Of a DNA stretch of 64,000 nucleotides, positions 34,301-37,300 are shown one piece after another. Numbering within the stretch: the first letter of the stretch is position 1; every line of letters starts with the position of its first letter. Source of the stretch: Eledone cirrhosa (taxonomy: Eukaryota); NCBI GenBank assembly GCA_964016885.1, contig OZ024765.1:3844001-3908000 (forward strand). The letters are read 5' to 3'. The position numbers and the translations under genes were made by a program. Below the pieces are notes generated by a model, which saw nothing but the letters and a program-made list of their open reading frames with translations, was not told where the DNA came from and made no database searches.

Positions 34301-37300
34301 TGGACATGTGATGCGCATGGAGAATGACCGCTGGGTAAAGAAGTCCTAAGTAGGAAGGAAGACACAGTAGAGGAAGACCACGAAAAAGATGGGCGGAGGT
34401 AGTGAGAGCAGACCTCAGATTGCTGAAACTTACAGAGGCGATGACGAAGGACCGTGACAAGTGGAGAGATGCTGTGCTGAATCTGACCCGTCCCAGCCTT
34501 GCAAGCAGGGAAAAGCAAACGTACGCCGAAGACGAAGACGATGACAATGACGATGAGAGAGAGAGAGACTAGAATTGTCAATAAAAACCAGAACCAACCG
34601 CAGCATTGAATGCACTTCGGCGCACCCTTGAGTCAATATCGTAGATATGGTCAGCCAATATCTTCTGCAATGGTTGGAGACTGCGACTATGTTGGCAGTC
34701 TGTCGTACCAAGTTTACCCAGAAAATCAAGACAACTGCTTCTTACCAAGTGACTAGAATCTGACAGAAGCTGGAGAGAAAAACAAAACAGAAGTCAGTGT
34801 AAAGCATTTAAATAGAAGTCATTTATAGAAATTATTGAACTCTTAATGTCCTGTACCACACCGCAAAAACTAGATTAGTAAGACATCTATATATAAATTT
34901 CTGCGATTCTGTTACAACACCTAAAGAGAGAGGAGTAGTTTGATTAACTCATACTACTCCTGTCTCTTTATGTCTACTGCCTGCGTGAATGTGTGTGTGT
35001 GTAAAAGGAAGGAAGGGGATGGTGAAAAATCTATGCTGTGTGTCAGTGTATGTATGTGTGTGTAAATGTATGTGTTTGTGTGAATGTATGTGTGTGAGTG
35101 TGTATTTTTGTAATACTGTAAATTTTCACAATCTGTCCACCAGTAAAGATACTATAAACATTTGAATTAACAAACCTATTTTTCAATATGAAGATCTAAC
35201 ACATCCTAGTTAGTCTTACCTTAAAGACTGTAGTTATTAGTCTTACCTTAAAGACTGTAGTTAGTCTTACCTTAAAGACTGTAGTTAGTCTTACCTTAAA
35301 GATTGCAGTTATTAGTCTTACCTTAAAGACTGTAGTTAGTCTTACCTTAAAGACTGCAGTTATTAGTCTTACCTTAAAGACTGTAGTTAGTCTTACCTTA
35401 AAGACTGTAGTTATTAGTCTTACCTTAAAGACTGTAGTTATTAGTCTTACCTTAAAGACTGTAGTTAGTCTTACCTTAAAGACTGTAGTTATTAGTCTTA
35501 CCTTAAAGACTGCAGTTATTAGTCTTACCTTAAAGACTGTAGTTAGTCTTACCTTAAAGACTGCAGTTATTAGTCTTACCTTAAAGACTGTAGTTAGTCT
35601 TACCTTAAAGACTGCAGTTATTAGTCTTACCTTAAAGACAGCAGTTATTAGTCTTACCTTAAAGACTGTAGTTAGTCTTACCTTAAAGACTGTAGTTATT
35701 AGTCTTACCTTAAAGACTGTAGTTATTAGTCTTACCTTAAAGACTGTAGTTAGTCTTACCTTAAAGACTGTAGTTATTAGTCTTACCTTAAAGACTGCAG
35801 TTATTAGTCTTACCTTAAAGACAGCAGTTATTAGTCTTACCTTAAAGACTGTAGTTAGTCTTACCTTAAAGACTGTAGTTAGTCTTACCTTAAAGACTGT
35901 AGTTATTAGTCTTACCTTAAAGACTGCAGTTATTAGTCTTACCTTAAAGACTGTAGTTAGTCTTACCTTAAAGACTGCAGTTATTAGTCTTACCTTAAAG
36001 ACTGTAGTTAGTCTTACCTTAAAGACTGCAGTTATTAGTCTTACCTTAAAGACAGCAGTTATTAGTCTTACCTTAAAGACTGTAGTTAGTCTTACCTTAA
36101 AGACTGTAGTTATTAGTCTTACCTTAAAGACTGTAGTTATTAGTCTTACCTTAAAGACTGTAGTTAGTCTTACCTTAAAGACTGTAGTTATTAGTCTTAC
36201 CTTAAAGACTGCAGTTATTAGTCTTACCTTAAAGACAGCAGTTATTAGTCTTACCTTAAAGACTGTAGTTAGTCTTACCTTAAAGACTGTAGTTATTAGT
36301 ATTACCTTAAAGATTGTAGTTATTAGTCTTACCTTAAAGACTGTAGTTAGTCTTACCTTAAAGACAGCAGTTATTAGTCTTACCTTAAAGACTGTAGTTA
36401 GTCTTACCTTAAAGACTGTAGTTAGTCTTACCTTAAAGACTGTAGTTATTAGTCTTACCTTAAAGACTGTAGTTAGTCTTACCTTAAAGACTGTAGTTAT
36501 TAGTCTTACCTTAAAGACTGTAGTTAGTCTTACCTTAAAGACTGTAGTTATTAGTCTTACCTTAAAGACTGTAGTTAGTCTTACCTTAAAGACTGTAGTT
36601 ATTAGTCTTACCTTAAAGACTGTAGTTAGTCTTACCTTAAAGACTGTAGTTATTAGTATTACCTTAAAGATTGTAGTTATTAGTCTTACCTTAAAGACTG
36701 TAGTTAGTCTTACCTTAAAGACTGTAGTTATTAGTCTTACCTTAAAGACTGTAGTTAGTCTTACCTTAAAGACTGTAGTTAGTCTTACCTTAAAGACTGT
36801 AGTTATTAGTCTTACCTTAAAGACTGTAGTTAGTCTTACCTTAAAGACTGTAGTTATTAGTCTTACCTTAAAGACTGTAGTTATTAGTCTTACCTTAAAG
36901 ACTGTAGTTAGTCTTACCTTAAAGACTGTAGTTATTAGTCTTACCTTAAAGACTGTAGTTATTAGTCTTACCTTAAAGATTGTAGTTAGTCTTACCTTAA
37001 AGACTGCAGTTATTAGTCTTTCCTGTACTTCTGTGTTGTGGTATTGACTTTTACCAATAACAGTTAGTGTGTCTACTAGTTGACTCAGTACACGGTGGGA
37101 CTCTGTAGAAATGGAAACCAAACAGAAGATATTATATTAACTTTTAAAATATATAATACAAACTGCACCATCTCATATACATATACATATATATATTTTT
37201 TCAATGAGGCCTACCCTTGGTGGTAGGGTCCGTGCCGTAGATAGAACTCAATATAATCCAATGGCGAGTAATCCAGTGAAACCCATAGAAAGGTTCCATG

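What the first reader, a model, noticed from the sequence alone, without database searches (positions are those of the whole stretch)
35207..37020. Ladder of ~70 in-frame splice donors after INTS4 exon 3
Seen: the last ~24 nt of exon 3 plus its donor (AAG|GTAAGA) have been amplified ~69 times. Units are only 24 or 27 bp, both multiples of 3, and the exon frame has no stop for 1776 nt. The seed appears to be the microhomology AGACTAA, present both in the exon (GAA AGA CTA ATA) and just after the donor. Inference: every unit is an essentially identical U1-binding 5' splice site. Any choice yields in-frame mRNA, adding n x VRL(I)T(T/A)VFK (up to ~592 aa) to the HEAT-repeat region of INTS4. The locus is therefore either a tunable isoform generator, a dense U1 sink on an snRNA-processing gene, or a natural test of how one donor among 70 is chosen. 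Frame preservation may be why the expansion is tolerated.
Basis: partly seen in the sequence, partly recalled or inferred. Interest (0 to 1): 0.85.

Follow-up and report, generated by a model that had tools for sequence, protein, structure and literature searches.

The report
Intron minisatellite repeating an unused donor
The end of one exon of an octopus-family INTS4 gene and its splice signal are copied 69 more times into the next intron, but the one spliced transcript found uses only the first signal, so this is likely an ordinary repeat of a kind already described in human genes such as F7 and CBS.

Summary
On the minus strand, exon 3 (37102-36996) of a single-copy octopod INTS4 gene is followed by 69 units (40 of 27 nt, 29 of 24 nt). 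They give 70 AAG|GTAA[G/T]A donors and a 592-codon open extension.

One spliced 2,996-nt contig from the same species joins exon 2 to exon 3 to exon 4 at donor 1 with no differences. The donor-1 protein aligns without gaps to Octopus vulgaris INTS4 (846 of 939 identical).

The open frame needs no selection: about 1 in 6 junction-spanning duplications are in frame and stop-free. The exon 6 acceptor of the same gene is repeated by a stop-containing 63-73-nt array. Minisatellites fill 28% of the gene's introns, and donor-motif arrays are common in this genome.

Human F7, CBS, IFI6, LMNB2 and PDGF have the same layout, with only the first one to three donors used (PMC1557585). This scan noted three similar arrays in other genomes (unchecked notes).

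Still open: assembled contigs hide rare isoforms, and the RNA individual's allele is unknown. Verdict: new member of a known kind, with an unusually large copy number.

The parts
36996..37102 (-). INTS4 coding exon 3 (107 nt); its last ~27 nt are the template of the repeat unit
   Evidence: tblastn; exon model; spliced contig covers exactly 36996-37102 with 0 differences
36990..36998 (-). Donor 1, AAG|GTAAGA, the authentic 5' splice site (GT at 36995-36994)
   Evidence: Loose end of the X4 contig at 36996 equals the first 30 nt of exon 4; orthologue proteins are colinear at this junction
35207..36995 (-). Minisatellite of 69 units (40 x 27 nt, 29 x 24 nt; 8 variants) carrying pseudo-donors 2-70, plus a 13-nt partial unit; open in the exon frame (592 codons)
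   Evidence: a 16-unit block occurs twice
34770..35206 (-). Unique remainder of intron 3, with the first in-frame TAG (35198-35196) and the true acceptor (90% pyrimidine tract); the intron would be 450 nt without the 69 units
34599..34769 (-). INTS4 coding exon 4 (171 nt), HEAT-repeat region
   Evidence: single copy in the genome
38212..38521 (-). INTS4 coding exon 2; its end is joined to exon 3 in the spliced contig
16327..40976 (-). Whole INTS4 coding region, 19 exons, 939 aa, intact
31449..32006 (-). Internal control: a 63-73-nt minisatellite spanning the exon 6 acceptor, with 7 decoy acceptors that all lead to an in-frame stop

Best explanation
This is a 69-unit intronic minisatellite that repeats the last codons of INTS4 exon 3 together with its splice donor; the spliced transcript recovered uses the first donor, so the other 69 are likely silent or near-silent pseudo-donors and the array is likely neutral. 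Steps: (1) Inferred: slipped mispairing or unequal crossing-over between short repeats on either side of the exon/intron junction (AAGACTAA 27 nt apart; TAACT 24 nt apart) made the first duplications. Joining the exon end to the sequence after the last donor rebuilds exactly the 27-nt unit seen 9 times and the 24-nt unit seen 28 times. (2) Inferred: ordinary minisatellite turnover expanded and shuffled the units. (3) Shown for the assembled majority form: splicing uses donor 1 and removes the whole array with intron 3, giving normal 939-aa INTS4. (4) Inferred by analogy with F7: the first donor wins through exon definition from the exon 3 acceptor or 5'-to-3' commitment as the RNA is made. (5) Inferred: a minor leak to donors 2-3, as in CBS and IFI6, may occur; it would add 8 or 17 residues rather than a frameshift, and the open frame is most simply chance.
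For: RNA-derived contig in run X4 (2,996 nt, depth 20.4, 0 differences) covers exactly exon 3, with loose ends equal to the end of exon 2 and the start of exon 4. It holds 351 nt before and 2,538 nt after exon 3, against 364 and 2,349 nt of CDS, so it is near full length with no room for a long insert. INTS4 is single copy. 11 of 11 INTS4 homologues align without an insertion at this junction (one starts just before it), and 0 of 28 retrieved proteins contain the repeat peptide. In-frame and stop-free by chance: 4217 of 24426 simulated duplications over the gene's 18 donors (0.173) and 237 of 1357 at this donor with the post-array tail as intron (0.175). Only 2 of 72 and 2 of 81 single substitutions in the two main units make a stop. 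The antisense strand and other minisatellites in the window also have open frames over 500 codons. Minisatellites cover 6174 of 21830 intron bases, lie in 8 of 18 introns, and tandem arrays span 2 of 36 splice boundaries. Human precedent: PMC1557585.
Against: The RNA evidence is one assembled contig from one sample; such contigs drop rare variants. Zero depth over the array in X4 says nothing, because the DNA run X1 also has zero depth at 36930-36977. X4 is sample S2, the DNA runs X1-X3 are S1, and S2 was not shown to carry the array. The kind of run X4 is not on record; RNA is inferred from the spliced contig. [quoted passage not shown] All 69 units keep a 3n length and none has a stop, whereas 3 of the 7 other arrays measured show clear non-3n length changes.
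Confidence: 0.85

Rival explanations
1. Tunable isoform generator: several donors are used at substantial, regulated levels, adding n x VRL(I)T(T/A)VFK to an INTS4 HEAT repeat, and selection keeps the array in frame.
For: All 70 donors are nearly identical, 7 of 9 matching CAG|GTAAGT, as good as most donors in the gene. All units are 3n and stop-free. CBS and IFI6 use two extra donors. Intron-proximal preference is seen with duplicated donors in HeLa. Repeats at exon-intron boundaries often have an alternative transcript in human segmental duplications (66% of such cases; PMC2812944).
Against: The assembled transcript uses donor 1. The frame has about a 0.17 chance under neutrality, and 24 is 27 minus one TAA-type triplet, so the two lengths are not independent. 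The exon would pass 300 nt by donor 9. No homologue carries such an insert.
Confidence: 0.06
2. The array is a young or polymorphic allele. The RNA sample lacks it or has few units, and carriers of the long allele do mis-splice, for instance to downstream donors or by skipping exon 3.
For: RNA (S2) and DNA (S1) are different samples. Comparable human arrays are length-polymorphic: F7 5-9 copies, CBS 16-21. F7 constructs skip the exon when upstream donors are lost.
Against: Exon 3 in X4 is identical to the window and both samples come from the same study. Eight variants and a duplicated 16-unit block suggest the array has some age. In F7 the first donor wins with all pseudo-sites intact.
Confidence: 0.05
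3. The array, or most of its length, is an assembly artefact.
For: No read or contig spanning the array was seen; array length was not confirmed from reads.
Against: The DNA contig of run X1 runs through exon 3 into the intron and stops at 36986, exactly the first fork in the assembled array, where 6 copies go on with C and 4 with T. The units show interspersed variants and a higher-order duplication, not a collapsed consensus. X1 may be the sample the assembly was made from, so this supports presence in reads, not independent occurrence.
Confidence: 0.02
4. The array works as a U1 snRNP sink or feedback sensor on an snRNA-processing gene, or as a ladder of recursive (AG|GT) splice sites.
For: 70 U1-complementary sites on the INTS4 pre-mRNA; two U1 snRNPs can bind alternative donors at once. 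Each unit has AG|GT and a branch-like CTAAC or CTAAT (30 and 40 copies).
Against: Arrays of donor-like motifs are common in this genome: 17,181 triple-AGGTAAG matches against 9,645 for the reversed control, 197 against 81 for CAGGTAAGT, and one array has 112 copies. Unit AGs have weak pyrimidine tracts (0.55 and 0.35 against 0.90 at the true acceptor). One nascent transcript is negligible against the cellular U1 pool (recalled knowledge, not measured).
Confidence: 0.02

Closest known systems
Human F7 intron 7 37-bp VNTR (Borensztajn et al. 2006, PMC1557585; read: abstract, introduction, first results section, discussion)
   Same: The first unit spans the exon/intron boundary, so identical donors are repeated in the intron; only the most upstream donor is used.
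   Different: F7 has 5-9 copies of 37 bp with 4 exonic nt, not a multiple of 3. Here there are 70 donors at 24/27-nt spacing, mostly exonic sequence, all in frame and stop-free, in a mollusc. That the pseudo-donors can function was shown in F7 and not tested here.
Human CBS intron 13 31-bp VNTR, c.1444_1467+7(16_21) (notation from passages of PMC2630376; splicing as summarised in the introduction of PMC1557585; the original CBS papers were not read)
   Same: The unit is 24 exonic plus 7 intronic nt, almost the same anatomy as here.
   Different: 16-21 copies, not 3n; two pseudo-sites are used besides the authentic donor. Here no use of extra donors was seen, at contig resolution only.
Human IFI6 (6-16) intron 2, LMNB2 and PDGF intron 4 donor-repeating minisatellites (known only from the introduction of PMC1557585)
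   Same: Donor followed by 10-25 pseudo-sites; the first donor, or the first three, are used.
   Different: This array has 69 pseudo-sites against at most 25 in that list. No wider census was found, so no record size is claimed.
Internal tandem repeats at exon-intron boundaries in human segmental duplications (De Grassi and Ciccarelli 2009, PMC2812944; passages read)
   Same: Tandem repeats crossing splice boundaries; 9 of the 10 coding intron-type cases in its Table 2 are in frame.
   Different: Those lie in recently duplicated, primate-specific gene families and often show alternative transcripts. This is a single-copy conserved gene with one observed transcript.

Membership tests
Donor-spanning minisatellite with 5' pseudo-sites (F7/CBS type) | Head-to-tail minisatellite whose first unit spans an exon/intron boundary | tested here: met
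   TRF array 35210-37024 spans the donor at 36995; both main units are rebuilt from exon end plus intron start
Donor-spanning minisatellite with 5' pseudo-sites (F7/CBS type) | Authentic donor sequence repeated unchanged in the intron | tested here: met
   68 of 70 are AAG|GTAAGA, 2 are AAG|GTAATA
Donor-spanning minisatellite with 5' pseudo-sites (F7/CBS type) | Most upstream donor is the main one used | tested here: met
   One spliced contig joins 36996 to 34769; majority form only, one sample, allele of that sample unknown
Donor-spanning minisatellite with 5' pseudo-sites (F7/CBS type) | Minor use of the second or third donor (seen in CBS and IFI6, not in F7) | tested here: inconclusive
   No contig laid on 36930-36993 in X4, but the DNA run has none on 36930-36977 either, and contigs drop rare forms
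Donor-spanning minisatellite with 5' pseudo-sites (F7/CBS type) | Pseudo-sites work when the first donor is mutated | not testable with these tools
   Needs a minigene
VNTR (variable number) | Copy number varies between individuals | tested here: inconclusive
   The one RAD-seq run laid (X6, 1 of 3 listed) and the run of organism B (X5) do not cover exon 3
INTS4 orthologue | Full-length colinear homology to INTS4, single copy | tested here: met
   846 of 939 identical to O. vulgaris INTS4 with no gaps, which carries Pfam INTS4_8HBD and INTS4_C; one locus in the genome
Recursive splice sites (AG|GT ratchet points) | Strong 3' splice site with pyrimidine tract abutting a regenerated donor | tested here: not met
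   AAG acceptor with 0.55 pyrimidine against 0.90 at the true acceptor; the definition is recalled, and nascent-RNA evidence was not testable
Coding tandem repeat / variable-length isoform cassette | Repeat present in mature mRNA or protein | tested here: not met
   Absent from the assembled transcript and from 28 of 28 retrieved proteins; rare forms not excluded

The most novel reading that the evidence does not exclude
Because every unit is in frame and copies the preceding HEAT-repeat helix, a measurable, tissue-dependent share of transcripts uses donors 2 and beyond and makes stable INTS4 proteins with 8-9-residue helix copies. The array would then be a graded, allele-length-dependent dial on an essential Integrator scaffold and a 70-step in vivo ruler of 5' splice-site choice, free of nonsense-mediated decay bias.
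Probability: 0.07. Interest if true: 0.65.

Novelty: new member of a known kind. Interest (0 to 1): 0.2.

Why it matters
As it stands it extends first-donor choice in donor-repeating minisatellites from human genes to a cephalopod, with almost three times as many pseudo-donors as the largest case listed in PMC1557585. It has one practical virtue. All alternative products would be in frame and so would escape nonsense-mediated decay, which means deep RNA reads would give an unbiased count of donor use against position. That count would separate first-donor models (PMC1557585) from the intron-proximal rule (PMC3413131). The assembled transcript already sides with the first donor. It would matter much more only if a regulated ladder of INTS4 proteins were shown.

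Tried and rejected
Run search: no RNA holder listed on record. X4 was picked because it held 0.24 of the sampled words, close to the 0.229 share of distinct exon 31-mers. That match is only weak support, since how words are sampled is not known.

Sister species and population check: X5 (organism B, share 0.06) and X6 (RAD-seq) mapped only to a dispersed repeat at about 37200-37400, so they say nothing about the array. 4 of 8 listed runs were laid, on 471 of the 2,521 bases searched.

Are other donor-motif arrays also exon-linked? 25 loci were examined, taken from the first 100 listed matches of each of two searches, so not a random sample. None showed an evident coding exon upstream by eye. 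15 upstream frames from 13 loci gave no Pfam hit above cut-off (one weak OpgC_C hit, E 0.019). True exon 3 also gave none, so the test is too weak. Exon-linked arrays were not shown to be common in this genome; only motif arrays were.

The array rewrote the exon end by gene conversion: rejected. 4 of 9 residues differ from O. vulgaris there, but 10 separate regions of the protein differ as much, and another homologue (P0004) also has ERLI.

RNA structure hides the pseudo-donors: a 6-bp hairpin is predicted per unit, but the junction folds no better than shuffles (z 0.08) and the hairpin-forming sequence is also present at donor 1.

Structured RNA or premature poly(A) signal: no Rfam family in the array and no AATAAA/ATTAAA in intron 3.

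A database protein with the insert: the 17 hits are unrelated low-complexity repeats except one 83-aa INTS4 exon 3 fragment without the repeat. My first donor-3 figure (0.345) used the array itself as intron and was redone (0.175). The exon model had a one-base error at exon 16, corrected.

Literature: no paper held all of INTS4 + splicing + octopus or minisatellite + splice donor + repeated + cephalopod; the library lacks most subscription journals. A recalled PNAS 2007 paper on introns from tandem arrays was not held, and a recalled UPF3A VNTR case was not found; neither is used as evidence. No supplements were read. No structure of an insert-bearing isoform was predicted.

Full report
OBSERVATION. 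The minus strand at 37102-34599 reads exon 3 (107 nt), a 2226-nt intron and exon 4 (171 nt). The intron begins with 69 tandem units, 40 of 27 nt and 29 of 24 nt, in 8 variants. They give 70 donor sequences from 36995 to 35219, 68 of them AAG|GTAAGA. The exon frame has no stop over the 1776 nt. All 28 matches of the 24-nt unit pattern in the 3.0-Gb assembly lie here.

THE GENE. Exon 4 finds INTS4 of Octopus vulgaris, O. bimaculoides and Argonauta at 89-95% identity, and human INTS4 chains in the PDB (where artificial HEAT-like repeat proteins score as well or better). tblastn places the exons between 40976 and 16327. A 19-exon model that uses donor 1 gives 2820 nt and 939 aa, with 846 identical to O. 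vulgaris and no gaps. The gene is single copy. All 11 homologues retrieved, from octopods to vertebrates, align without an insertion at the junction.

WHICH DONOR IS USED. No run was on record as RNA. Four of eight listed runs were laid on exon 3 and the first 66 nt of the array. Run X4 holds one contig of 2,996 nt, depth 20.4, that matches 36996-37102 with no differences. Its loose ends are window 34740-34769 (start of exon 4) and 38212-38241 (end of exon 2). It is therefore a spliced transcript using donor 1, and its length fits the normal mRNA (351 nt before and 2,538 nt after exon 3, against 364 and 2,349 nt of CDS). There are three limits. Contigs drop rare forms. The empty bins over the array are uninformative, because DNA run X1 is also empty at 36930-36977. 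X4 is a different sample from X1, and its allele is unknown.

IS THE ARRAY REAL. The X1 DNA contig crosses the donor and ends at 36986, the first fork of the assembled array (6 copies continue with C, 4 with T). Variants are interspersed and a 16-unit block occurs twice. Presence in reads is thus supported indirectly; length is not confirmed. X5 (another organism) and X6 (RAD-seq) do not cover exon 3, so age and polymorphism are unknown.

ORIGIN (inferred). If the exon end is joined to the sequence after the last donor, two microhomologies appear: AAGACTAA at period 27 and TAACT at period 24. Crossovers there rebuild exactly the 27-nt unit present 9 times and the 24-nt unit present 28 times; the second commonest unit combines the two. 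The 13-nt tail could itself be a cut-off unit, so the direction cannot be proved without an outgroup. Without the array the intron would be 450 nt.

IS THE OPEN FRAME SELECTED. Simulated junction-spanning duplications of 15-60 nt are in frame and stop-free in 4217 of 24426 cases over the gene's 18 donors and in 237 of 1357 at this donor, about 1 in 6. Only 2 of 72 and 2 of 81 single substitutions in the two main units create a stop. The antisense frame of the array is also open for 615 codons, and the minisatellite at 61177-62807 has frames of 541 and 537 codons. The exon 6 acceptor of the same gene is repeated by a 63-73-nt array whose 7 decoy acceptors all lead to a stop, so this gene tolerates a boundary array with no frame protection. 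Against this, every unit here keeps a 3n length, while 3 of 7 other arrays measured have clear non-3n length variants. With only two unit lengths this carries little weight.

BACKGROUND. Tandem repeats cover 9429 of 21830 intron bases in this gene, minisatellites 6174; 8 of 18 introns hold one, and 2 of 36 boundaries are spanned. Genome-wide there are 17,181 triple-AGGTAAG matches (control 9,645) and 197 triple-CAGGTAAGT matches (control 81); these count matches, not arrays. One array has 112 copies. Of 25 such loci examined, none was shown to start at a coding exon, but the test missed the true exon 3 too. Donor-like ladders are common here; exon-linked ones were not shown to be.

WHAT IS KNOWN. 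PMC1557585 (abstract, introduction, first results section and discussion read) describes this layout in human F7, CBS, the 6-16 gene (25 pseudo-sites), LMNB2 and PDGF. The first donor alone, or the first three, are used, and F7 pseudo-sites work only when upstream ones are mutated. The CBS unit is 24 exonic plus 7 intronic nt in 16-21 copies (PMC2630376 passages). PMC2812944 (passages) reports repeats at exon-intron boundaries that often have alternative transcripts. PMC3413131 (passages) gives the opposing rule: of two strong donors 45 nt or more apart the intron-proximal one is used almost always. PMC10078293 (passages) had nothing specific to this layout. The present locus follows F7. Two searches found no paper on this locus or on such arrays in cephalopods. 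Three earlier notes of this scan describe similar arrays in other genomes; they are unchecked and were seen after my own result.

MECHANISM AND VERDICT. Most likely this is a neutral minisatellite that was seeded on a splice junction and is removed with the intron because the first donor is committed first (0.85; the selection mechanism is by analogy with F7, not shown here). A small leak to donors 2-3 is compatible with this and untested. Rivals: regulated isoform ladder 0.06; RNA sample lacking the allele 0.05; assembly artefact 0.02; U1 sink or recursive ladder 0.02. New member of a known kind; interest 0.2. It is notable only for copy number and for being a decay-free system in which to count donor use.

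Noticed in passing
window 31449-32006 (-): A 63-73-nt minisatellite repeats the INTS4 exon 6 acceptor (CACCACAG|TAT) 7 extra times; every decoy would give an early stop. It mirrors the donor array. Which acceptor is used was inferred only from protein colinearity.
   Followed up: partly
window 25004-24280 (-): INTS4 intron 11 looks like a U12-type (minor) GT-AG intron: it starts GTATCCTT and has TTCCTTAAT shortly before the AG. The motif definitions are recalled.
   Followed up: partly
window 35105-35160 (-) and 49512-50649 (+): About 50 nt just downstream of the donor array resemble the unit of the 108-bp, 10.5-copy minisatellite 14 kb away on the other strand.
   Followed up: partly
window 11657-12254, 14028-14331, 25988-26325, 29036-29934, 61256-62790: One 60/72-bp minisatellite family recurs at five or more places in the window, in both orientations.
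   Followed up: no
window ~37200-37400 and ~37430-37610: A high-copy dispersed repeat in intron 2 draws hundreds of contigs and reads in the DNA runs; the adjoining stretch looks by eye like a long inverted repeat, possibly a MITE.
   Followed up: no
window 44553-45089 (-): Reverse transcriptase fragment (Pfam RVT_1, E 1.1e-19), probably from a retroelement.
   Followed up: partly
window 51758-52213 (-): Frame with a weak EFL1 domain match (E 3e-06, below the curated cut-off); probably an exon of a neighbouring gene.
   Followed up: partly
window 27041-27098 (+): Weak Rfam tRNA match (31.2 bits) inside INTS4 intron 9, not called by ARAGORN; possibly a tRNA-derived repeat.
   Followed up: partly
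L045:2397-7781; L036; L010; L038: Large arrays elsewhere in this genome carry donor-like motifs (48 bp x 112; 25 bp x 47 or more; 44-bp and 27-bp satellites), with no evident exon at their start where the start was in view.
   Followed up: partly
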